A program made the translations under genes and the position numbers. Source: Spirochaetales bacterium (GTDB taxonomy: Bacteria; Spirochaetota; Spirochaetia; DSM-27196; PWMO01). Taken from it: a DNA stretch of 39,999 nucleotides. Positions within the stretch are counted from its first letter, which is position 1, and every line of letters begins with the position of its first letter. This document shows positions 31,058 through 39,999 of the stretch, in pieces. The DNA lies in assembly GCA_007123465.1 (NCBI GenBank), contig SKLB01000228.1, positions 1 through 39,999 of the forward strand, read 5' to 3'. Below the pieces are notes generated by a model. It did not search any database, was not told the origin of the DNA, and saw only the letters and a list, made by a program, of their open reading frames with translations.

Positions 31058-31133
31058 ACTGCGCGCAAGGGTTTAGCCGCTAATCGCACGCTCCAACCTT
31101 GCGTTTTTGACACACTCCGGCTATCTTTTCGGT

Positions 31134-32468
31134 ATGCAGAGCTTTCAAGAATCGTTTGCAGAGATAGGATTGGCGGTTCCAGATATCTGGTTGCCAGCTG
31201 AAGGGACCGATCTGGAACGCTGGGCGGTCATCGCGTGCGATCAGCACACATCGGATCCTGGTTACTGGGAGCAGGTAGAGAAAAAGGTGGGCAATGCACC
31301 GTCCACGCTGGCGCTGATTTTTCCCGAAGTCTACCTCAACGCGCCCGATGCTGGCGCCCGTATGCACAACGTAGCACAAGCCATGCAGCGTTACGTTGAC
31401 CAGGGAGTGCTGCAGAGCAGCGGGCCTATGGCGGTGCTGGTGGACCGCCAGACTCCGCAGGTTGCCCACCGCACGGGGCTGGTGCTGGCCGTTGACCTGG
31501 AACACTACGACTACCGGCCCGATTCCACGTCGCTGATCCGTGCCAGCGAAGGAACCATTCTGGAGCGCCTGCCTCCGCGCGTCAAGATTCGCAGACAGGC
31601 CAGTTTCGAATTCCCGCACGTGCTTATCCTCATCGACGATCCCGAGAGAACCGTGATCGAACCGTTGTGCCGTGACCGCGATTCGTTTGAGCGGCTCTAC
31701 GATACCAGGTTGATGCTCGGCGGCGGCTCGGTGCGCGGCTACGCGGTACGCGAACCGCAGCATTTACAGCGTATCGCCCATGCCCTGCACAAACTTCGCG
31801 ATCCGGCACGATTGAAGGCGCGCTATGATCGCGACGATGCGATGCTGTTTGCCGTTGGCGACGGCAACCACTCGCTGGCAACCGCCAAGCAGGTCTGGGA
31901 AGAGAAGAAGTCCGCCGGCAGCCCCCTGGCCGACGACCCGGCACGCTACGCGCTGGTCGAAATCATCAACATGCACGATCCCGGCCTGCACGTCGAACCG
32001 ATTCACCGCGTAGTCGATGGCATTGACGCCCAGATGCTGGCTGATACGCTACGCTCGGCAATTAAATCCGGCAAGGAACCGGAGCTGATGACGCCCGGGC
32101 AGGCGGTTGAGCGCGTGCTGCAGACATCCCAGCCGCCGCGCAGTTTTGCGCTGCTGGACGGTGAGCGAGCGCTGTGCTACACCCTGCCCGATGGCTCAGC
32201 ACTGTCCCCCGCGGTGCTGGTGCAGCAAACACTCGAGAGCTTCGAGCAGACCGGCAGCGCCAACGTCGAGATCGACTATATTCACGGTACCGAGGCGATT
32301 ATGGAGCTCAGTCGCCGTGAGGGTTCGCTTGGATTGCTGGTGCCACCGATTGAGGCCGAGTCGCTGTTTCAATACGTTGCCAACAACGGTCCGTTACCGC
32401 GCAAGATTTTTTCGCTGGGAGAGGCGGAAGAAAAGCGCTACTACTTTGAGTCACGGCGAATCGTCTGA
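31134..32468 (+). CDS. DUF1015-family protein
   Basis: LERWAVIACDQHTSDPGYWE and FAVGDGNHSLATAK match the conserved DUF1015 blocks (ACDQ.T and DG.H) as I recall them. Confidence 0.55.
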   Translation: MQSFQESFAEIGLAVPDIWLPAEGTDLERWAVIACDQHTSDPGYWEQVEKKVGNAPSTLALIFPEVYLNAPDAGARMHNVAQAMQRYVDQGVLQSSGPMAVLVDRQTPQVAHRTGLVLAVDLEHYDYRPDSTSLIRASEGTILERLPPRVKIRRQASFEFPHVLILIDDPERTVIEPLCRDRDSFERLYDTRLMLGGGSVRGYAVREPQHLQRIAHALHKLRDPARLKARYDRDDAMLFAVGDGNHSLATAKQVWEEKKSAGSPLADDPARYALVEIINMHDPGLHVEPIHRVVDGIDAQMLADTLRSAIKSGKEPELMTPGQAVERVLQTSQPPRSFALLDGERALCYTLPDGSALSPAVLVQQTLESFEQTGSANVEIDYIHGTEAIMELSRREGSLGLLVPPIEAESLFQYVANNGPLPRKIFSLGEAEEKRYYFESRRIV

Positions 32469-32869
32469 AGCAGGAAGAACGCCAGCAGCGCTGAGCTGAG
32501 CGCCAGCGCCCGAAACAGGTTTCGATCCGCACTCCAGCGCTCGGGTTGCGCCAGTTTCTCCCCGGCAGACTCCGCCGGTTCTACGGCGCCGACGCGGCCG
32601 GGAATGCGGATCAAACCCTCGGATTGGCCCACGTAGCCCATTCGTCGCGCTTCGATTCGAATCTGCTGCGGATCCGAACGCAGTCTCCGCGCTGAAGCTG
32701 AGAGCTCATTCTGCAGCTCGGTGAGTTCTTCGATGTGTGATACCAGAGTGTCGCGATACTCCGAGAGCCCCGCGTACGCCAACAGCCCGCGTTCGCCAAA
32801 AAATAGCGTCATCAGGAGATAGATCCAGGCGGCGATCGCCAGCGAGAGTCCAAGATTCTTAACTATCAC
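32441..32869 (-). CDS. FtsB/DivIC-like septum formation initiator
   Basis: Single N-terminal TM LSLAIAAWIYLLMTLFF, then a coiled coil LVSHIEELTELQNELSASARRL and the DPQQIRIEARRMGYV motif typical of the family. The 3' end overlaps DUF1015 by 28 nt. Confidence 0.6.
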   Translation of the reverse strand: MIVKNLGLSLAIAAWIYLLMTLFFGERGLLAYAGLSEYRDTLVSHIEELTELQNELSASARRLRSDPQQIRIEARRMGYVGQSEGLIRIPGRVGAVEPAESAGEKLAQPERWSADRNLFRALALSSALLAFFLLQTIRRDSK

Positions 32870-32908
32870 ACTTCTGAGTTACGGAACAAACAGCGACACT
32901 CTTTAATG

Positions 32909-32938
32909 TTGACAACCGAAATTGCGTTGCAGTACAGT
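32909..32938 (+). promoter_or_regulatory. Sigma-70-like promoter TTGACA-N18-TACAGT
   Basis: TTGACA at 32909-32914 and TACAGT at 32933-32938, in the 146-bp divergent intergenic region. Confidence 0.35.
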
Positions 32939-32948
32939 GAGAAACGTG

Positions 32949-32976
32949 TCAACAGCACTCTGTTCGATGCCGATAA
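32949..32976 (+). promoter_or_regulatory. Sigma-28 (FliA)-type promoter: TCAA-N16-GCCGATAA
   Basis: GCCGATAA at 32969-32976 matches the sigma-28 -10 consensus 8/8. TCAA at 32949-32952 matches TAAA 3/4. The ATG lies 39 nt downstream with a GGGAG RBS at 33002-33006. Confidence 0.5.
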
Positions 32977-33015
32977 GAAAATTGATGAACCCCATGTTCC
33001 CGGGAGATAACTGAA

Positions 33016-34695
33016 ATGGAGCTCGAGCAGTACGGAGTCTGGGTCAAAGCGGGGCCTGAAGACGTAGCGGACGACAATGAAGAGATGTTCGCTCTCTCAG
33101 ACGTTGGTGACGACGTCGATCAGGACACGTTCGCTGAGTCGAGCCATCTTACCTCCGAAGAAGAGGATCTGCTGGCATCGCTCGAAGAGGAAGAGCCCGC
33201 TGCAGAGCAGCCCGCCGCTGTGGCAGAGTCCGCTGACGGCGATCAAGATTTTTCCTTTGATCTCGACCAGGACGACGAAACACTGGAAGACAGCCTCTCG
33301 CTGGATGACTTCACACTCGATGATATTGAGCTCGATGACATGTCGATCCCGGCCGAAGAGTCCGCAGCAACCGCTGATCTGGAGGATGACCTGAGCCTCG
33401 AGGACACCGCAGAGGAACTGCCCGAACTCGACATCGAAAGCGATGAAGGATTCGACGACCTCGACGCAGTCACGCGCGAGATGACCGACAACAGCTCCGC
33501 GCCGCCCGCCCCCGACGGCTCTCAACGCCCAGCAGCAGAACCGATCGGCGGGATAGAAAGCGAGCTCGCGTCAATCAAGGCCGAGCTCCAGGCGCTGCGC
33601 GAAGAGCTGGCCGAGATCCGCAGCGGTGCAGGCCCCGCCCCAGCCGACGCAACCGGCCCAACCGGGAGCGCTATCGACAGCAGCGAGGAACCGCAGATAA
33701 GTGCCGGGTTCTTTGAGGAAGACGAAGACGAAACAATCGCGCTCACCGATGATGAGCTCGACAACATCCTGAACACCGCAGAGTTTACCGAGGAACTGGG
33801 CAAACCAAGCGCAGTTGACGATGTCGATGAGGCCGAGCCAGCTACCGAGCCGCTCGAGCAGGCCGACCAGATCAGCCTCGAGCAACTCGATGACGTGGAG
33901 ATGATCGATCTCTCGGATGAATCCGGCGAGGAAGCATCGCAGTGGGAAGATCAGTCGCTGCACGGTGGTGACATTCTCGCGCCATCCAGCTTTGACGAAG
34001 AGATCACTCTGGAAGATGAAGACGACGCCGACCTTCAAGACAGCGAAACCGCTACTGAGCTCTTCGTTGGAACACAAAAGGACGTAGACGCGCTGGCCGA
34101 CATGGACATCGATAGCGAACTCGCGGGCATTGAAGAGCTGCGCGATGACGAAGATGACTATCAAGATGCTGCGCAGGAGACGGGCGCAGCGGAGTTGGAC
34201 TCGCTCGAGATAGACGTACTCGAAGCCGCCCCCGACGAAGACGAGTCTGCAGAATCTGCAGAGGATCTCTCATTAGACAGTCTCGATACGCTTGAAGCAT
34301 CCGGTGAAGAGTTGGAGCTGGCCGAAGCCGCAGATGACGAAGACCAAAGTGGTGGTCTCGAGCTGGATTTGGACGATATCGGCGATGATGCGCCGTTTGA
34401 TCTCAGCGACGAAGACGAGCTGACTCCCTCTTTCCAGGCCGATGACACCGAAGACCTGGACCTGGACATCGATCTGGATGAGGGCCCGCAGCAGCCGGCC
34501 GCTGAGGCACCATCAACAACGGAGTCGTTTCCCTCTGACCTGCGCGAAGAAATCCGCTCGGTGCTGCAGTACATGGACCAGCTGCTCGAGTCGCTGCCGG
34601 AGGAAAAGATCGAAGAGTTTGCGCGTTCAGAGCATTTCGAAGTATACAAGCGGCTCTTTGAGGAACTCGGGCTCGACGCGCCTGGTGCAGAGTAA
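33016..34695 (+). CDS. Polyacidic, low-complexity (probably intrinsically disordered) protein with one short coiled coil and a compact helical C-terminal domain
   Basis: 559 aa. About 36 D/E in the first 100 residues, and only 15 K+R in the whole protein. Recurring L-[DE]-[DE]-x-[LI]-[DE] units. ELASIKAELQALREELAEIRS coiled coil. Ordered-looking C-terminus DLREEIRSVLQYMDQLLESLPEEKIEEFARSEHFEVYKRLFEELGL. Confidence 0.8.
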   Translation: MELEQYGVWVKAGPEDVADDNEEMFALSDVGDDVDQDTFAESSHLTSEEEDLLASLEEEEPAAEQPAAVAESADGDQDFSFDLDQDDETLEDSLSLDDFTLDDIELDDMSIPAEESAATADLEDDLSLEDTAEELPELDIESDEGFDDLDAVTREMTDNSSAPPAPDGSQRPAAEPIGGIESELASIKAELQALREELAEIRSGAGPAPADATGPTGSAIDSSEEPQISAGFFEEDEDETIALTDDELDNILNTAEFTEELGKPSAVDDVDEAEPATEPLEQADQISLEQLDDVEMIDLSDESGEEASQWEDQSLHGGDILAPSSFDEEITLEDEDDADLQDSETATELFVGTQKDVDALADMDIDSELAGIEELRDDEDDYQDAAQETGAAELDSLEIDVLEAAPDEDESAESAEDLSLDSLDTLEASGEELELAEAADDEDQSGGLELDLDDIGDDAPFDLSDEDELTPSFQADDTEDLDLDIDLDEGPQQPAAEAPSTTESFPSDLREEIRSVLQYMDQLLESLPEEKIEEFARSEHFEVYKRLFEELGLDAPGAE

Positions 34696-34698
34696 GCC

Positions 34699-35768
34699 AT
34701 GAAGACCGAAGGACTGCTGCGCAGGGCGATTCGCATTCAGAATAGCGGCAGCCCGAGCGGGGCTGCTACGCCGTCGCACGCCCAGGTTCAGCCACAAAAA
34801 AAAAAGCGCTCGCCGAGCTTCTCCGTGAGGCGCCTGCGGTTGACCAGCCGGTCGAGAACCTCGATGCGGAAGCTGCAGTTGCCCACCTGCTGAGAGAGTT
34901 TGAGACTATCCACACCGGCTTCGACGCGCCGGTACGCGTGTTCTCACTGTTGTGCCGGGATCTCGGGATAGAAAAAGGTGCATTGCTCCTGCCGGACTAT
35001 GACGGCGTACATTTTGCGCCGTGGGCTCTGCGCGGTATCGACAGCACCTCCGAGCGGCGCATGCAGATACCGTCAGCCATGCTGCAGGAAATGTGTGATG
35101 TCACCGCGGTTGATATCCTGCAGGCTGAACGCCTCGAGCCGTGGCGGCGCTACTTCTCTTTCCGCGAAGGTTCAATGTTGAAGCATCTGGCGCTGATCCC
35201 ATTCTGCGTTGACAGCTCGCCGTTGGCAGTGATCCTTATTGCAGCCAGTCCCTACCTGCAGGTCGAACACATCGCTATTCGCCTGATTGTCTCAGCAATT
35301 CGCGAGCGCGCACTCGCTCTGATTCTGCACGATCATGAAGCCCGCGTACGGGCCCGCTTCCGTCACGTACTGAGCGCGCACAACGACATTGTGCAGCGTA
35401 TCAGCGAAGAGCTCGAGCGACCGGATGTCACCTCGGTCACTGCGGTGGTAATCGAAGTGGCAACGCTGCTGACCGCAGTCAGCGACAGTAACCATGACGC
35501 TGATCGATATCACCTGCAGCAGGATCTGCTGCGGATAATTGGATCGATGGTGGAGGATAGTGCCACAGCCGGCCTGTCGGCGCCGGGCAGGATTGTGCTG
35601 ATTCTGCAACCAGGCCTTGCGCTGGGTCCGGAACTGCTGGTTCACCAGCTGCAGTTGTCGTTGGCGGAGCTGTTTCAGGAGCTGCCCCAACCGATTGACC
35701 TCAAACCACGCTACAAGACAATAACGCGTGACGTAGCTGCCGTCGACGAACTGCTGTCTTCACCCTGA
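34699..35768 (+). CDS. GAF-like domain protein split at an A10 tract (ORFs 34699-34893 and 34938-35768). A continuous 356-aa product requires a -1 shift at A_AAA_AAG
   Basis: ATG lies 3 nt after the upstream stop. After the A-tract, the -1 frame reads KKKALAELLREAPAVDQPVENLDAEAAVAHLLREFETIHTGFDAPVRVFSLLCRDLG... straight into the 276-aa ORF. The 0 frame instead gives R/S-rich junk and stops at 34893. The -1 frame is closed upstream by TAG at 34743 and has no ATG/GTG/TTG before 34938. Confidence 0.5.
34796..34805 (+). repeat. A10 homopolymer (slippery tract) inside a coding region of a high-GC genome
   Basis: Ten consecutive A, read in frame as CAA AAA AAA AAG, which contains the heptamer A_AAA_AAG at 34800-34806. 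Confidence 0.9.
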
Positions 35769-35783
35769 ACCGGTGGTGTCTCA

Positions 35784-37355
35784 ATGATCAAAATCATGCA
35801 CGCACGCAACGGACAGCTCGCGGCTCAGGCCGACGGCAGGGCGCTGTATTCACGCTACGATCCGGCTGCCGAGGCGATGCGCTTTGTCAGGCGCGAACTC
35901 GCCGCAGCGCAACAGTGCACCACTGTCGTGATTCTCGGTGAAGGGCTGGGGTACCTCACGGCGGCGCTGCGCACTCTGCAGCCTGCTGCACGAATCGTTG
36001 CGGTCCATCTGAACGCAGCGCTTTTCGCCAGGCGAATCTGCGATGCCGATCAGCAGTGGTGCGTCGCAGAACCAGGACGGATCACCTTCGAGCAATTCCT
36101 CGAACAACAGATCGCCGATGAAGAGATCGACGGGCTGGTGTTGCTGACGTGGGAACCGTGCACGCGCGCATTTGCAGCTCAGGCGGAACCGATCGCGGCG
36201 GCAGTGCGCAACTTCCTCGATCAGCGCTCCGCCACTCTGGCCACCGAGCGCTATTACGGCGCACGCTGGATCAGTAACAGTGTTGTGAACGCAATTGAGC
36301 TGCAGCCGTTACCGCGTATCAAGGGCAGAAACGCTCCGGTGGCGATCGCGGCCGGCGGTCCTTCCCTGCCGGAGTCGTTGGAGCTGCTCAAGCAGCGAGA
36401 CCGCGGGGTATCACTCTGGGCGCTGCCCTCGGCGCTTCCCATTCTGTTGCACGCCGGATGCCCTCCCGATCTGGTTGTTACCACCGACGCCGGTTTCTAC
36501 GCCACACACCACCTGCGCCAGCTGCGCACCTGGCCAAACATACCTCTGGCCGCTCCGCTGTCGGCCGCGTTGATATTGCAGGTGCGCCGCCGCCCGACGC
36601 TGATTCTCAACCAGGGAAGCTGGTTTGAGCACGACCTGCTCTCCGATTGCGGTCTGCCGTGGGTTGCAGTCCCGGCGCACGGAACGGTAGCCGGTTCAGC
36701 CTGGTACCTGGCCGCCGCACTTGGGGCAACCGAAGTAGTGTTTGCAGGGTTAGACCTCTGCATTCGCGACATCCGGTCCCATCCGCGCGGCCATGCCTTC
36801 GAGCCACTGCTGTATAGCGGGGAGCAGCGGCTGCGTCCCTTGCACCATGTCCTGTTTGAGCGCAACGTTACAGCGAGCGAACGCATCGCAGCAGCATCGA
36901 TCGAGCGGACTTCGCGTGCGCTGCGCACGTACGCTGCCTGGTTTCGCGGCCACGCTGCCGCGATGCCAATTCCCGCTTCGCGCCTGGCTCCTTCACCGGT
37001 TGACACCGCTCTGGCGCCGTGTCACCGTCTGCCGCGCTGCGCCGATGCCGGGTACGCAGGCCCGGGGACACCGGCCGGTACCGTCGACCGCCGCCATGCG
37101 CTGCACCAACGTCTCTGCACCTGGCAGCTTCAGACAGAAGAGCTGAACTCTGCGTTCTGCACCGCTGGCACACAGCGAGATCAACAGCAGCAGCGCCTGC
37201 TGGCCATGGCGCGCACCGTTGACACCGCCGGATATCTCCAGGCGCTGCGAGCGCTGCGCAACAACGATCAGCCCGACAAGCGTGTGCAACGGTTGCAGCG
37301 GCGTCTGCAGCAGTTCTTTGACCACTTGCGGCGACGGGTGGAGCAGGCCGCGTGA
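35784..37355 (+). CDS. DUF115 / Maf (motility-associated factor, MptE-like) family protein, paralogue 1
   Basis: N-terminus ALYSRYDPAAEAMRFV, core PVAIAAGGPSLPESLELLK...PDLVVTTDAGFY...HGTVAGSA...GATEVVFAGLDL is typical of Maf-type putative flagellin glycosyltransferases. Confidence 0.7.
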   Translation: MIKIMHARNGQLAAQADGRALYSRYDPAAEAMRFVRRELAAAQQCTTVVILGEGLGYLTAALRTLQPAARIVAVHLNAALFARRICDADQQWCVAEPGRITFEQFLEQQIADEEIDGLVLLTWEPCTRAFAAQAEPIAAAVRNFLDQRSATLATERYYGARWISNSVVNAIELQPLPRIKGRNAPVAIAAGGPSLPESLELLKQRDRGVSLWALPSALPILLHAGCPPDLVVTTDAGFYATHHLRQLRTWPNIPLAAPLSAALILQVRRRPTLILNQGSWFEHDLLSDCGLPWVAVPAHGTVAGSAWYLAAALGATEVVFAGLDLCIRDIRSHPRGHAFEPLLYSGEQRLRPLHHVLFERNVTASERIAAASIERTSRALRTYAAWFRGHAAAMPIPASRLAPSPVDTALAPCHRLPRCADAGYAGPGTPAGTVDRRHALHQRLCTWQLQTEELNSAFCTAGTQRDQQQQRLLAMARTVDTAGYLQALRALRNNDQPDKRVQRLQRRLQQFFDHLRRRVEQAA

Positions 37356-39010
37356 ACATCCTGCAGAAGAATCTTGCCACGTTGTCCCTGCGGCATGCGG
37401 CGCTCTCAAAACGGCTGACAGAGCTGCGCCCGAGTTCCCGGGTGCGCTTCAGCGCCAGCCGTGCCGGACCGCTCTACGCGGTTATTGGAGACGAACGAGA
37501 GACCGCGCTGCACTCGCGCTTCGATCCACGCCGCGAGGCCTCACGGCTGGTAGCCGGCAGCCGCAGCTCGGGCTTCTGCCTCGTCCTGGGCCTGGGCCTG
37601 GGGTATCATGTCCGTGAACTACTGTGCCAGCCTCACCTCCAGCGTGCGCTGATTATTGAGTATGACGGCGCGCTGCTGCGCGCCATTCTCGAGCGGCAGG
37701 ATCTGAGTGATGTGTGGCAGGACAGTCGGGTTCAGCTCTATGTCGATCAAGCGCCACACGCCGTTGCCTCCGCTATTGCGCAGCACTACGTTCCGGTTCT
37801 TCACGGCAATCTTTCAACCCTGCTGTTGCGCGGCAGGTTTGACTGTGACCGAGCGCTGTTCAGCGATGCAGGGACAGCTGCTTCCGAGGCCGCCGAAGCT
37901 GCCGGTGCTGACCTCAGCGTGCAGCGCGTCTTTGGCCGCCAGTGGATGCGCAACATCATCACCAACAGCCTTGCCTGCCCGGTACAACCCGGCTTGCCGC
38001 GTTGCCGCAGCGCGATTGTCAGCGCAGCCGGACCGTCGCTGGACAACAAAATCGACGCCATAGCACGACGCAAAGCGGACCAGTTGCTGATTGCCACCGA
38101 TACATCGCTGCCGCGACTGCTGGGCGCCGGCATCCGGCCGGATCTGGTGCTTGCTATCGACTGCCAGCTGGCATCGTATCTGCACGTGCTGGCTACCGCC
38201 AAACAGCAGCTGACACTGGTAGCTGACGCCGGGGTCCATCCGGCGCTTACGCGCCGTTTTTCGGCCGTACATCTGATCGGCGGAGGCCATCCGCTGCTCG
38301 CTTATCTACGCACCGAGGGCGTCCCGATAACCTGGCTTGATACCTCCGACGGCAGCGTAACTCACGCCGCGGTTCGTCTGGCGGTCCAGCTCGGAGCCAA
38401 ACAGATCGAGGTCCACGGCGCCGATTTCTGCTATCCGCGCGGCAGCGCGTACGCCCGCGGCAGCTACATTCATAGTCACATGATCGGCCGTGCCCGGCGC
38501 ACAGTGCCATACGCCAGCGGTCTGTACCGCTTTGTGCTCGAGCGCCCCGAACTTGAACTCGACCAGATAGACGGCCACTGGGCCTACACCACAAAGGTGA
38601 TGCGTCACTACCACCAACGTTTTACAAATCTGCAAGCGGAACTAGGGGCGCGCATCGTACGCCCAATCGGCGGTGCGCGAATCGACAGCGGCACCGTGCA
38701 GTCCGGCGTGCAGGATCACCGCTGCAGCGAGCACGGCGCACCCGCGCCGCTGAACACTGCCGGCGACACTGCTGCAGGTAACGCTCACTCCGTGCTTGGC
38801 GCCTATCGCCGGGCGCTGGCACAGATCCCCACTGTACACGATCCGCTGTGGTTCTACTTTGATCAGAGCACGGCCGCCGAGCGGCGCCTGTGGCAGACGC
38901 TGTTTCCTCTGGCGGCGTTCTTCTCGGCTCAGTCAAGGCCCGTTGGAACCGCGGCGCTACTCGAACACACCCGCGATAGCGCACTGCAACTGCTCAAGCA
39001 GCTGGTATAG
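37352..39010 (+). CDS. DUF115 / Maf family protein, paralogue 2
   Basis: LHSRFDPRREASRLV, SAIVSAAGPSLDNKIDAI...LLIATDTSLPRLLGAGIRPDLVLAIDCQ...GSVTHAAVRLAVQLGAKQIEVHGADF. The GTG start overlaps the upstream stop (GTGA). Confidence 0.7.
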   Translation: MNILQKNLATLSLRHAALSKRLTELRPSSRVRFSASRAGPLYAVIGDERETALHSRFDPRREASRLVAGSRSSGFCLVLGLGLGYHVRELLCQPHLQRALIIEYDGALLRAILERQDLSDVWQDSRVQLYVDQAPHAVASAIAQHYVPVLHGNLSTLLLRGRFDCDRALFSDAGTAASEAAEAAGADLSVQRVFGRQWMRNIITNSLACPVQPGLPRCRSAIVSAAGPSLDNKIDAIARRKADQLLIATDTSLPRLLGAGIRPDLVLAIDCQLASYLHVLATAKQQLTLVADAGVHPALTRRFSAVHLIGGGHPLLAYLRTEGVPITWLDTSDGSVTHAAVRLAVQLGAKQIEVHGADFCYPRGSAYARGSYIHSHMIGRARRTVPYASGLYRFVLERPELELDQIDGHWAYTTKVMRHYHQRFTNLQAELGARIVRPIGGARIDSGTVQSGVQDHRCSEHGAPAPLNTAGDTAAGNAHSVLGAYRRALAQIPTVHDPLWFYFDQSTAAERRLWQTLFPLAAFFSAQSRPVGTAALLEHTRDSALQLLKQLV

Positions 39011-39011
39011 A

Positions 39012-39836
39012 TCAGACCCAGAAACCGACGGCAGCGTAACCGACAAAGTTTGCATCACCGGACCGATCAAAGCTATTGGCATACCCCAACTCACGCCCGC
39101 GCTCTGCTCCCTGCGTCCTCGCGAAGGCAACTGCGGCGGCTGCGGCTCCAGGCGAGCAGGCCGACTGGTTACGCGCTGCATGTTCAAGCAGCGCCTCGGG
39201 GTCGGCCGCCACACTGCAGTCCAGAAAACCGCGGTCATTGACCGTCTCGGCCCATCGTCGGTTGCTCTCACGCGAACCCGGGCGCGTCAGAGCGAAACGC
39301 GGACCGTAGTGCGTCAAATCTGTTGACCCGACAACGGTCAGCTTGTGCTGCTCGGCCTCACGCGCCAGTAGCTGCCCCAGCGCTATCGCGCTGCGGTCAG
39401 CCGGAGCACGCAGCCAGACCACGCGTGCCCGGGGGAAGAGGTGGGCTATCAGCGGAAGATGAATTTCAACCGAGTTCTCGCGGCTGTTGTCGGCGCTAGT
39501 GGACAATTCGCCCCGGACCTTGTGCACTAGCTCGGTGTCGGACTCAACAACACCCAGCGGTGTCTCAAACCCCTGCTCAACAGCCACCAGAATCGGCTGT
39601 CCGGGGGCCAGGTGCCCACCGATCACCACAACGGTCCGTGCGTCCGGATCAAGCGCCCTCACACCGCGGTACGCAAGCTCACCCGAGAAGGCCCAACCGG
39701 CATGCGGCACAATTGCGGCACACGCGCCGCTGTCGTCGCTGATCTGATTGTGCCATTGCCGGCAAACCTCGCGCACCGCACCCGCGTCCGCAGGATACCA
39801 GCCGGCAGGCAGACCCCGCTGTCGGATAGTTGCCAT
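39012..39836 (-). CDS. Memo-family protein (AmmeMemoRadiSam system protein B-like)
   Basis: RQRGLPAGWYPAD and AIVPHAGWAFSG are the Memo N-terminal motifs, followed by VVVIGGHLAP and GSTDLTHYG. The start is taken at ATG 39836 rather than the ORF-track 39944. Confidence 0.7.
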   Translation of the reverse strand: MATIRQRGLPAGWYPADAGAVREVCRQWHNQISDDSGACAAIVPHAGWAFSGELAYRGVRALDPDARTVVVIGGHLAPGQPILVAVEQGFETPLGVVESDTELVHKVRGELSTSADNSRENSVEIHLPLIAHLFPRARVVWLRAPADRSAIALGQLLAREAEQHKLTVVGSTDLTHYGPRFALTRPGSRESNRRWAETVNDRGFLDCSVAADPEALLEHAARNQSACSPGAAAAAVAFARTQGAERGRELGYANSFDRSGDANFVGYAAVGFWV

Positions 39837-39883
39837 GACTTCATGATACACCGTATTCCGGTGTGGAGAAAAGTGTGGGAAGT

Positions 39884-39908
39884 GGTGCCGAAAATGTTGT
39901 TCGGCACC
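39884..39908. other. Perfect 9-bp inverted repeat upstream of the Memo-like gene (operator, or terminator of a gene beyond the window)
   Basis: GGTGCCGAA (39884-39892), a 7-nt loop, then TTCGGCACC (39900-39908). Confidence 0.3.
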
Positions 39909-39999
39909 AGCAGCGCCGGATCTCATCCCTGCGGTCCGCGCCACCGCTCTGCGTGACCCTCTGTCACCTCGTCAGCCCGCAGGAACCGTCTACGCCACC

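What the first reader, a model, noticed from the sequence alone, without database searches (positions are those of the whole stretch)
34699..35768. Gene interrupted at an A10 tract that forms a dnaX-type A_AAA_AAG -1 frameshift heptamer
The 0 frame reads CAA AAA AAA AAG, with the heptamer at 34800-34806. A -1 slip joins MKTEGLL...QPQKKK to ALAELLREAPAVDQ... and on into the 276-aa GAF-like ORF, giving 356 aa. The -1 frame has no canonical start before GTG 34938, and that GTG lacks an SD. The 0-frame continuation is R/S-rich and ends after 29 codons. Four explanations are open: a homopolymer sequencing error (A11 would fuse the frames), slipped-strand phase variation, transcriptional slippage on a run of at least 9 A, or programmed -1 ribosomal frameshifting. 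Campylobacter maf-family genes are phase-variable through homopolymeric tracts, so a switch directly upstream of two maf-like genes is suggestive. An A10 run is conspicuous in a genome this GC-rich.
Basis: partly seen in the sequence, partly recalled or inferred. Interest (0 to 1): 0.7.

Follow-up and report, generated by a model that had tools for sequence, protein, structure and literature searches.

The report
Conserved poly-A recoding site, spirochete gene
A run of ten A's splits a spirochete regulatory gene into two reading frames, and the same out-of-frame run is kept in relatives down to about 30% protein identity, so it is very probably a deliberate slippage site (most likely RNA polymerase adding one A) and not an error or a dead gene.

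Summary
A10 lies at 34796-34805, the 0 frame from ATG 34699 reads CAA AAA AAA AAG, and the -1 frame continues to 35768, giving a 356-aa fusion. It is not a sequencing error. Thirteen distinct lineages from independent short-read assemblies (NCBI MAGs, ENA, JGI, Logan), with fused proteins sharing only 25-94% identity, carry the same A10 with the same -1 offset. One strain has A9 (+1 offset). One sister lineage has A11 and is in frame, and one distant lineage has an in-frame A10. The 44 codons after the tract, upstream of any start codon, are under purifying selection only in the -1 frame (pN/pS 0.22 against 1.3 and 3.5). The short upstream ORF encodes the family's N-terminal MGLL/GLLRRA motif. 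The A_AAA_AAG heptamer itself is not conserved: G is replaced by T or C and the codon phase shifts in some lineages. No dnaX-like stimulators exist. Run length is what is conserved. Best reading: programmed transcriptional slippage (A10 to A11 mRNA), with ribosomal -1 slippage a possible contributor, limiting output of a PelD-like GAF plus degenerate-GGDEF protein encoded upstream of two Maf glycosyltransferase genes. This is a new case of a known mechanism, unusually deeply conserved.

The parts
34699..34806 (+). Segment 1 of the gene (0 frame): ATG 34699 through AAG 34804-34806. It encodes MKTEGLLRRAIRIQNSGSPSGAATPSHAQVQPQKKK (36 aa) and carries the family's N-terminal GLLRRA motif.
   Evidence: The same motif, in the same frame, precedes the tract in all 15 split loci and starts the continuous relatives (MGLL[KDE][RK]A...). 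Constraint is only weak (pN/pS 0.72 against 0.81 and 1.18 in the other frames).
34796..34805 (+). A10 homopolymer, the recoding (slippage) site. A11 in the mRNA, or a -1 ribosomal slip, joins segment 1 to segment 2.
   Evidence: It is the only run longer than 7 in the window, with 0.004 expected. A10 with the same -1 offset is present in 13 distinct lineages at 25-94% protein identity.
34800..34806 (+). A_AAA_AAG heptamer in the 0 frame. It is a possible -1 ribosomal slip site, present here but not conserved as such among relatives.
   Evidence: G is replaced by T in L024 and by C in L026/L028, and the codon phase differs in L026/L028.
34806..35768 (+). Segment 2 of the gene (-1 frame): GCG 34806 to stop TGA 35766-35768, 320 codons. 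It encodes ALAELLREAP... followed by a GAF-like domain and a degenerate GGDEF-like domain.
   Evidence: The first 44 codons (34806-34937, upstream of any start codon) have pN/pS 0.22 in this frame against 1.31 and 3.49 in the others. Structure model pLDDT 72.9; best PDB match PelD, then GAF proteins. 254 relatives found by profile search.
34807..34893 (+). Out-of-frame tail of the unshifted product (28 codons, RSPSFSVRRLRLTSRSRTSMRKLQLPTC, then TGA 34891-34893). It is probably a by-product.
   Evidence: Tail length varies from 1 to 28 codons among lineages and the sequence is not conserved as protein.
34938..34940 (+). GTG that gene callers take as the start of a 276-aa ORF. It is not a conserved start.
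   Evidence: The homologous codon is CTG in L003/L004. Called starts differ in every lineage (P0001-P0006, P0008-P0010).
33016..34695 (+). Upstream gene for a very acidic 559-aa protein (TP_0179 family in relatives). Its TAA stop ends 3 nt before ATG 34699, so it is probably co-transcribed and translationally coupled.
   Evidence: Precomputed PF27359 (TP_0179) hits on the syntenic genes of L001, L003, L004, L006, L009, L018 and L019.
35784..39010 (+). Two downstream Maf-like (MptE-like) glycosyltransferase genes (35784-37355 and 37352-39010, overlapping by 4 nt), conserved neighbours of the recoded gene.
   Evidence: Pfam PF01973, E 7e-18 and 5e-26. Same synteny in every locus long enough to show it.

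Best explanation
The two ORFs are one gene for a roughly 356-aa PelD-like (GAF plus degenerate GGDEF-like) protein. Its genomic reading frame is deliberately broken by an A10 tract. The frame is restored during expression, not in the DNA. Most likely RNA polymerase slips on the T10 template and adds one A in a fraction of transcripts. Normal translation of the A11 mRNA then gives MKTEGLL...QPQKKK-ALAELL...; A8 would also fuse the frames. Unslipped transcripts give a 64-aa peptide with a junk tail. The tract therefore caps the yield of the full-length protein at a fixed minority fraction relative to its operon neighbours (the TP_0179-like protein upstream and two Maf-like glycosyltransferases downstream). 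Early termination in unslipped transcripts could also reduce downstream maf expression. Shown: the split, its deep conservation, coding constraint in both frames, and the architecture of the family. Inferred: that the shift occurs at transcription, its efficiency, and its regulatory purpose.
For: (1) It is not an error and not a recent lesion. A10 with the same -1 offset occurs in the window, L001, L003/4/5, L017, L006, L007/8, L009-15, L018, L019/20, L021/22, L024, L026 and L028. That is 13 distinct lineages from SPAdes, MEGAHIT, JGI and Logan short-read assemblies of different samples. Their fused proteins share only 25-94% identity. The window and L001 are 92.4% identical in DNA. Within a lineage, the consensus length is the same in every sample pair or group compared, including 7 samples for L009-15. 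(2) The fused product matches the family. Continuous 330-400-aa relatives start MGLL..A and are colinear across the junction. L023, at 51% identity to the split L024, has A11 at the homologous site and is in frame (GAA GAA AAA AAA AAA GCC CTT). (3) Both parts are coding. pN/pS is 0.22 in the -1 frame for the 44 start-less codons after the tract, against 1.31 and 3.49 in the wrong frames. No start codon is conserved there. (4) Run length, not a heptamer, is conserved. The next base is G in 12 loci, T in 1 and C in 2, and the codon phase is shifted in L026/28. All 14 A10 loci fuse at A11. All-AAA lysine codons are kept in genomes where AAG is preferred. An A10 also persists in frame in L029-32. 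(5) No ribosomal-frameshift stimulators were found. Downstream fold z-scores run from -1.0 to +1.0, the covariation term is +0.17, there are zero conserved pairs upstream, and no Rfam match has E below 6. (6) L002 (A9) needs +1/-2, which a -1 ribosomal slip cannot supply but a one-A deletion by RNA polymerase can. (7) Precedent exists. RNA polymerase slips efficiently at runs of 9 or more A/T. Thermus dnaX uses a run of 9, and two-ORF Chlorobi dnaX genes carry A10. Reporter efficiencies were 10%, 40% and 63% for 7, 9 and 11 A. C. rodentium tssM1 (A11) gives 20-25% full-length product, while Y. pseudotuberculosis tssM3 has the tract in frame (PMC5009743; PMC3711429; PMC4256274).
Against: There are no transcript or read-level data, so the step at which the shift occurs is inferred. 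Every A10 locus also contains a valid X_XXY_YYZ heptamer in the 0 frame, and 12 of 15 have A_AAA_AAG in the ideal phase, so -1 ribosomal slippage would give the identical protein and may contribute or dominate. The only locus that argues directly against -1 PRF (L002, A9) is a single short contig and could be an assembly error or a null allele. The slippage behaviour of spirochete RNA polymerase is unknown. The tRNA-Lys repertoire could not be checked because the window has no tRNA genes. The N-terminal segment is only weakly constrained (pN/pS 0.72).
Confidence: 0.6

Rival explanations
1. Programmed -1 ribosomal frameshifting on the run is the main route. This would be tandem slippage at A_AAA_AAG or A_AAA_AAA, or length-dependent ribosome sliding on poly(A). 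Transcripts would be faithful A10 copies.
For: The heptamer A_AAA_AAG is in the correct phase in the window and in 12 of 15 split loci, and the other three have A_AAA_AAT or A_AAA_AAA. The -1 offset is conserved in all 14 A10 loci. The product would be identical to the A11-mRNA product. A_AAA_AAG and A_AAA_AAA are known bacterial shift sites (PMC3711429).
Against: Seven bases suffice for tandem slippage, yet 10 are conserved, including synonymous A's in minority codons. The G is not conserved. No conserved downstream structure, upstream SD-like element or Rfam dnaX element was found. L002 (A9) cannot be rescued by a -1 slip. AAG is the preferred Lys codon here (68%), which by inference implies a dedicated tRNA-Lys(CUU). 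That is the situation in which Thermus uses polymerase slippage rather than ribosomal frameshifting (PMC5009743).
Confidence: 0.22
2. The tract is a DNA-level phase-variation switch (slipped-strand mispairing). Most cells are OFF (A10), and rare A11 or A8 cells are ON.
For: Homopolymers are mutable. Tract length does differ between related lineages: L002 has A9 and L017 has A10 at 92% protein identity, and L023 has A11 and L024 has A10 at 51%. The locus concerns cell-surface or flagellar modification, a typical target of phase variation (PMC3711429).
Against: The consensus state is OFF, at the same length, in 13 lineages. It is identical in every set of independent samples of one lineage: 7 samples for L009-15, 2 for L004/5, and 2 each for L007/8, L019/20 and L021/22. 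No ON-dominated population of an A10 lineage was seen. A gene silent in nearly all cells would not be expected to keep pN/pS 0.22 and stay recognisable down to about 25% identity. A10 has been held against the easy A10-to-A11 mutation for that whole time span.
Confidence: 0.1
3. The split is an artefact or decay: a homopolymer sequencing or assembly error (true length A11), a pseudogene, or two independent genes (a 64-aa peptide and a 276-aa protein started at GTG 34938).
For: A single window cannot exclude an indel error. Gene callers annotate a separate 276-aa ORF.
Against: The same A10 is found in more than 25 contigs from unrelated projects and assemblers, all short-read. Those assemblers also call A11 (L023) and in-frame A10 (L029-32) where these occur. 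There is purifying selection upstream of any start codon. GTG 34938 is CTG in L003/4, and the called starts differ in each lineage. There is no SD before the GTG.
Confidence: 0.03

Closest known systems
Citrobacter rodentium tssM1 / Yersinia pseudotuberculosis tssM3 transcriptional frameshifting (Gueguen et al. 2014, PMC4256274)
   Same: A cellular, non-mobile gene is split at a poly-A run (A11) with no SD-like or structural stimulators. The full-length protein is made from slipped transcripts at a minority ratio (20-25%). In a related species the tract is in frame and slippage gives the short form. The same two arrangements are seen here: A10 out of frame in most lineages, and A11 or A10 in frame in L023 and L029-32.
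   Different: The gene family and phylum differ. The tract here lies near the N-terminus, after about 36 codons, so the short product is a small peptide rather than a functional truncated protein. Conservation here spans lineages at 25-35% protein identity, against two species for tssM. No experiment has been done here.
Thermus thermophilus dnaX (run of 9) and two-ORF dnaX genes of Chlorobi (A10): programmed transcriptional realignment (PMC5009743; PMC3711429)
   Same: The slip site is a run of 9-10 A. Stop codons lie close by in the non-productive frames. Conservation of run length among orthologues is used as the argument for polymerase slippage. In the Chlorobi genes the long product needs the shift, as here.
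   Different: dnaX makes two functional products in a defined ratio. Here a function for the short product is doubtful. The protein is unrelated.
E. coli dnaX -1 programmed ribosomal frameshift (A_AAA_AAG)
   Same: The same heptamer in the same phase is present in the window, and a -1 shift is required.
   Different: E. coli dnaX depends on an upstream SD-like element, a downstream stem-loop and a single tRNA-Lys. None of the RNA elements is found or conserved here, and the heptamer's G and phase are not conserved. In dnaX the shift truncates the protein, whereas here it extends it.
Shigella flexneri mxiE, mxiA, spa13, spa33 transcriptional slippage (cited in PMC4256274)
   Same: Slippage at A/T runs sets the level (15-55%) of a regulator and of components of a surface-appendage machine.
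   Different: Enterobacterial virulence-plasmid genes with shallow conservation and a different machinery.
Campylobacter phase-variable maf genes
   Same: A homopolymer lies in a flagellin-glycosylation locus containing maf-family genes.
   Different: In Campylobacter, poly-G tracts inside the maf genes vary in DNA between ON and OFF within strains. Here a poly-A tract lies in a neighbouring regulator-like gene and is held at one out-of-frame length across lineages and samples.
PelD of Pseudomonas aeruginosa (c-di-GMP receptor, GAF + degenerate GGDEF; PDB 4dn0, 4etz)
   Same: It is the best structural match to the model of segment 2 (Foldseek E 2e-5). Both have a two-domain order of GAF followed by a GGDEF-like alpha/beta domain lacking the GGDEF motif.
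   Different: Sequence identity is 12-14% and TM-scores over the whole chain are low (0.23-0.29). No Pfam or NCBIfam match exists. I could not recognise an RxxD I-site. The genomic context is flagellar glycosylation rather than Pel polysaccharide.

Membership tests
Programmed transcriptional realignment (RNA polymerase slippage) site | Homopolymeric A or T run of about 9 or more in the coding strand at the frame junction | tested here: met
   A10 at 34796-34805. Relatives have 9-11 A at the homologous site.
Programmed transcriptional realignment (RNA polymerase slippage) site | Run length conserved among orthologues regardless of codon phase and flanking base, with the frames joined by a change of one or two run nucleotides | tested here: met
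   All 14 A10 loci fuse at A11. The next base is G, T or C, and two codon phases occur. L023 carries A11 in frame.
Programmed transcriptional realignment (RNA polymerase slippage) site | Heterogeneous mRNA population (A9, A10, A11, A12...) from a homogeneous DNA template | not testable with these tools
   Needs RT-PCR amplicon sequencing or ESI-MS with a synthetic RNA control, as in PMC4256274.
dnaX-type -1 programmed ribosomal frameshift | Slippery heptamer A_AAA_AAG in the 0 frame | tested here: met
   Present at 34800-34806. Across relatives, however, G is replaced by T (L024) or C (L026/28) and the phase is shifted in L026/28.
dnaX-type -1 programmed ribosomal frameshift | Downstream stimulatory stem-loop or pseudoknot a few nucleotides 3' of the heptamer | tested here: not met
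   Single-sequence folds have z-scores from -1.0 to +1.0. In the alignment fold the covariation term is +0.17, and 1 of 22 pairs is compensatory.
dnaX-type -1 programmed ribosomal frameshift | Upstream SD-like element, or a match to the Rfam dnaX frameshift element | tested here: not met
   There are no conserved columns or pairs in the 70 nt upstream. The Rfam scan of 34500-35100 found no match with E below 6.
dnaX-type -1 programmed ribosomal frameshift | AAG decoded by a single, weakly pairing tRNA-Lys(UUU) | not testable with these tools
   The window has no tRNA genes. AAG makes up 68% of Lys codons, which suggests, but does not show, a tRNA-Lys(CUU).
Phase-variable contingency locus (slipped-strand mispairing) | Tract length differs between close strains or samples, including ON (in-frame) alleles | tested here: not met
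   The length is identical in all samples of each lineage: 7 for L009-15, 2 each for L004/5, L007/8, L019/20 and L021/22, and 4 for L029-32. The only close-pair difference is L002 (A9) against L017 (A10), and both are out of frame.
Phase-variable contingency locus (slipped-strand mispairing) | Length heterogeneity among reads within one population | not testable with these tools
   No read data are available.
PelD-like GAF + degenerate GGDEF c-di-GMP receptor | GAF domain followed by a GGDEF-fold domain lacking the catalytic motif | tested here: inconclusive
   AlphaFold model pLDDT 72.9 from a 7-sequence alignment. Foldseek top hit is PelD 4dn0 (E 2e-5, TM 0.25-0.28). GAF-only hits have target-normalised TM 0.52-0.60. 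No Pfam or NCBIfam hit.
PelD-like GAF + degenerate GGDEF c-di-GMP receptor | RxxD inhibitory-site motif that binds c-di-GMP | tested here: inconclusive
   By eye, no RxxD precedes the GGDEF-equivalent position. The conserved motif is D-x-[FY]-R-[ILV]-x-Q-D. Binding was not tested.
Maf (MptE-like) flagellin glycosyltransferase neighbours | Pfam PF01973 domain above the gathering threshold | tested here: met
   65.3 and 91.9 bits against a cut-off of 34.6 for 35784-37355 and 37352-39010.

The most novel reading that the evidence does not exclude
The A10 tract is an ancient expression governor of this gene family, maintained by selection throughout a large part of the Spirochaetia. A one-base shortfall has been kept while the protein diverged to about 25-35% identity. 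Lineages occasionally reset the dial by moving the tract in frame (A11 in L023, in-frame A10 in L029-32). That would make it one of the most deeply conserved recoding sites in a cellular, non-mobile gene outside dnaX and prfB. The tiny 'frameshifted' gene TP0180 next to TP0179 in Treponema pallidum might be the same split, which would bring the phenomenon into a cultivable pathogen where it can be tested.
Probability: 0.4. Interest if true: 0.72.

Novelty: new member of a known kind. Interest (0 to 1): 0.6.

Why it matters
Annotation pipelines call this gene as a truncated 260-290-aa protein plus an orphan peptide. They therefore miss its true N-terminus and the fact that its output is throttled. 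About a quarter of the family representatives examined have similarly short calls. Conserved slippage sites in ordinary cellular genes are few (dnaX, tssM, Shigella T3SS genes). One that has been held out of frame across very deep divergence gives strong natural evidence that a low, fixed ratio of product is itself the selected trait. The gene sits between a TP_0179-family protein and two Maf-type glycosyltransferases and looks like a PelD-type second-messenger receptor. The site may therefore set the dose of a regulator of spirochete flagellin glycosylation. It also offers a natural series (A9, A10, A11, in frame and out of frame) for studying slippage by spirochete RNA polymerase.

Tried and rejected
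1. **Sequencing error.** Rejected, because the same A10 occurs in more than 25 contigs from independent short-read assemblies.
2. **Separate 276-aa gene starting at GTG 34938.** Rejected, because the start is not conserved and the 44 codons upstream of it are under purifying selection.
3. **dnaX-like stimulators.** I looked for a downstream hairpin or pseudoknot, upstream structure or an SD-like element and Rfam families. None was found.
4. **Pfam and NCBIfam on the fused protein.** No family was found, only a sub-threshold FliG_C hit (E 0.008) that I disregard.
5. **Metagenome scan with the window-clade alignment.** It found no loci. The narrower A6 gave L026-L028.
6. **Second homologous-protein run with an 86-sequence profile.** It returned nothing new because of the candidate cap.
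7. **Cluster names.** They gave only 'uncultured Spirochaetia/Spirochaetales'.
8. **tRNA-Lys repertoire.** The window has no tRNA genes.
9. **Literature.** I found no report of this family or of spirochete A-tract recoding.
11. **Promoter and terminator scan of 32400-36000.** It gave only background-level hits.
Full report
**1. The observation**

The sequence is as described. A10 occupies 34796-34805 and is followed by G. ATG 34699 sets the 0 frame, which reads CAA AAA AAA AAG, so A_AAA_AAG lies at 34800-34806. The 0-frame ORF ends at TGA 34891-34893 after a 28-codon R/S-rich tail, giving 64 aa. The -1 frame is open from 34746 to 35768, and its first ATG/GTG/TTG is GTG 34938. One extra A, or a -1 slip, gives a 356-aa protein. 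The run is the only homopolymer longer than 7 in the 40-kb, 60.5% GC window. The iid expectation for A>=10 is 0.004, and AAA and CAA are minority codons here at 32% and 15%.

**2. Context**

The gene lies 3 nt after the stop of a very acidic 559-aa protein gene. It lies 16 nt before the first of two overlapping genes for Maf-type (Pfam MptE-like) proteins. The order is conserved in every related locus long enough to show it: DUF1015, DivIC-like (minus strand), TP_0179-family, this gene, Maf x2, Memo (minus strand).

**3. Relatives: the split is conserved**

A search of 5.8 billion proteins found only six close relatives. All were called as 261-316-aa proteins with different, non-homologous start codons. 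I fetched their contigs, and later those of more distant relatives found by a profile search of 1.84 billion representatives (254 hits) and by genome and metagenome scans. The same arrangement appeared again and again:

- an ATG-started short ORF encoding an MGLL/GLLRRA motif;
- an A10 run;
- the conserved protein continuing in the -1 frame.

| State of the tract | Loci |
|---|---|
| A10, out of frame (-1) | window, L001, L003, L004/5, L017, L006, L007/8, L009-15, L018, L019/20, L021/22, L024, L026, L028 |
| A9, out of frame (+1/-2) | L002 |
| A11, in frame | L023 |
| A10, in frame | L029-32 |

The A10/-1 loci make up 13 distinct lineages whose fused proteins share 25-94% identity. The window and its nearest relative, L001, are only 92.4% identical in DNA. 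The sources are independent short-read assemblies: SPAdes MAGs at NCBI, MEGAHIT at ENA, JGI metagenomes and Logan. Within a lineage, every sample has the same length, including seven samples for L009-15.

The exceptions are informative:

- L002 is 92% identical in protein to L017 but has A9. It needs a +1/-2 correction, or one A fewer.
- L023 is 51% identical to the split L024. It has A11 at the homologous site and is in frame, reading GAA GAA AAA AAA AAA GCC CTT. A11 is exactly the length that would fuse all 14 A10 loci.
- L029-32 carry an in-frame A10, GAC AAA AAA AAA AGT.

This pattern rules out sequencing error and recent decay.

**4. It is one gene**

- Continuous relatives of 330-400 aa begin MGLL[KDE][RK]A. 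Some have (D/E/Q)KKK at the homologous linker position. They are colinear with the conceptual fusions across the junction.
- The 44 codons between the tract and GTG 34938 contain no start codon. They show pN/pS 0.22 in the -1 frame, against 1.31 and 3.49 in the other frames, summed over seven pairs.
- GTG 34938 is CTG in L003/L004.
- The N-terminal 33 codons are only weakly constrained (0.72 against 0.81 and 1.18). Their support is mainly the conserved motif and the position of the ATG at the end of the upstream gene.
- The out-of-frame tails vary from 1 to 28 codons and are not conserved. The short product therefore looks like a by-product.

**5. Which mechanism**

Three processes can act on an A run: slippage by DNA polymerase, by RNA polymerase or by the ribosome.

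*DNA-level phase variation is disfavoured.* The consensus is the same OFF length in all lineages and in all replicate samples. The gene nevertheless stays under purifying selection across very deep divergence. A10 has also been held against the easy mutation to A11.

*Between the two expression-level routes, the evidence favours the polymerase:*

- (a) What is conserved is a run of 10, three more than a heptamer needs. It includes synonymous A's in disfavoured codons.
- (b) The base after the run is G in 12 loci, T in one and C in two, and the run sits in a different codon phase in L026/L028.
- (c) I found no conserved downstream structure, no upstream structure or SD-like element, and no Rfam dnaX element.
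- (d) The A9 variant cannot be rescued by a -1 ribosomal slip.
- (e) AAG is the preferred Lys codon. This suggests a dedicated tRNA-Lys(CUU), the situation in which Thermus uses polymerase slippage (PMC5009743).

*Published precedents fit:*

- RNA polymerase slips efficiently at 9 or more A/T (PMC5009743).
- Two-ORF dnaX genes in Chlorobi have A10, and reporter efficiencies rise from 10% (7 A) to 40% (9 A) and 63% (11 A) (PMC3711429).
- C. rodentium tssM1 (A11, no stimulators) yields 20-25% full-length protein, while Y. pseudotuberculosis tssM3 has the tract in frame (PMC4256274).

*The caveat.* Every A10 locus still contains a usable slippery heptamer, and the two routes give the same protein. 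Ribosomal slippage, or ribosome sliding on poly(A), may therefore contribute.

| Reading | My estimate |
|---|---|
| Recoding of some kind | about 0.85 |
| Transcriptional slippage as the main route | about 0.6 |
| Ribosomal slippage as the main route | about 0.2 |
| DNA phase variation | about 0.1 |
| Artefact, pseudogene or two separate genes | about 0.03 |

**6. What the protein is**

No Pfam or NCBIfam family matches. An AlphaFold model of segment 2 has pLDDT 72.9 from a shallow alignment. Its best PDB match is PelD, the c-di-GMP receptor built of a GAF domain and a degenerate GGDEF domain (E 2e-5). Many GAF proteins follow, and GAF-only matches have target-normalised TM up to about 0.6. 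'GAF-like' is therefore supported, and the C-terminal half is probably a degenerate GGDEF-like domain. Ligand binding is untested, and I saw no RxxD motif. Named relatives are all uncultured Spirochaetia.

**7. How it probably works**

- Shown: the upstream gene and this gene are adjacent, which suggests co-transcription.
- Inferred: ribosomes start at ATG 34699. On faithful A10 transcripts they terminate at 34893 after making a 64-aa peptide.
- Inferred: on the fraction of transcripts carrying A11, they continue to 35768 and make the 356-aa protein.
- Inferred purpose: the full-length protein is held to a fixed minority of the translation initiated at this gene.
- Speculative: about 870 nt of untranslated mRNA in unslipped transcripts could lower expression of the downstream maf genes.

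Lineages with the tract in frame would have the opposite ratio, as in Yersinia tssM3.

**8. Novelty**

The mechanism is of a known kind. The gene family, the phylum and above all the depth of conservation are new as far as I could find.

One lead is unverified. T. pallidum TP0180 is a 159-bp gene next to TP0179 and is listed as frameshifted in yaws strains (PMC3265458; PMC3630124). That is what the short upstream ORF of such a split gene would look like.

**9. Verdict**

This is a real, conserved recoding site.

Noticed in passing
literature; T. pallidum TP0179-TP0181: T. pallidum TP0180 is annotated as a 159-bp gene directly after TP0179, the namesake of the Pfam family of the window's upstream gene. 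It is listed as 'frameshift mutation, pseudogene' in T. pallidum ssp. pertenue and Fribourg-Blanc. It may be the short upstream ORF of the same split gene.
   Followed up: partly
window 33016-34695 (+): The upstream 559-aa protein is extremely acidic (long D/E-rich stretches). Its orthologues carry a precomputed PF27359 (TP_0179) hit, but my own Pfam scan of the window protein returned no family. The likely reason is an older Pfam copy or composition filtering.
   Followed up: no
L024 2326-2333: The split relative L024 (42% GC) has a second A run (A8...ACG GAA AAA AAA GTA...) inside the short upstream ORF, about 80 nt before the A10 tract.
   Followed up: no
L029 2054-2060 (and L030-32): In the lineage with the in-frame A10 there is also an A7 (ATA AAA AAA GCC = IKKA) in the second N-terminal motif, and another A7 about 110 nt downstream. 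A-rich lysine runs seem to recur in this N-terminal linker.
   Followed up: no
window 37352-37355: The two Maf-like genes overlap by 4 nt: the GTG start of the second lies inside the end of the first (35784-37355 and 37352-39010). This suggests translational coupling.
   Followed up: no
window 39012-39944 (-) and 31107-32468 (+): The flanking genes are an AmmeMemoRadiSam system protein B / Memo-like gene (TIGR04336, E 2e-52) and a DUF1015 gene (E 2e-58). Both are conserved neighbours of the locus in relatives.
   Followed up: no
L011 and L015, 1718, against L010 and L012-14, 1763: In contigs of the same lineage from different samples, the first Maf-like gene is called with different starts (570 aa against 555 aa). 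There may be a sequence difference just after the recoded gene's stop.
   Followed up: no
protein representatives P0013-15, P0021, P0028, P0038, P0039, P0053, P0061, P0062, P0071, P0081, P0087, P0088, P0100, P0125: About a quarter of the family representatives examined are called with only 10-40 residues before the conserved core and lack the MGLL N-terminus. All six such cases I could check at the DNA level were A10 splits (P0008, P0009, P0010, P0093, L026, L028), so many more may be.
   Followed up: partly
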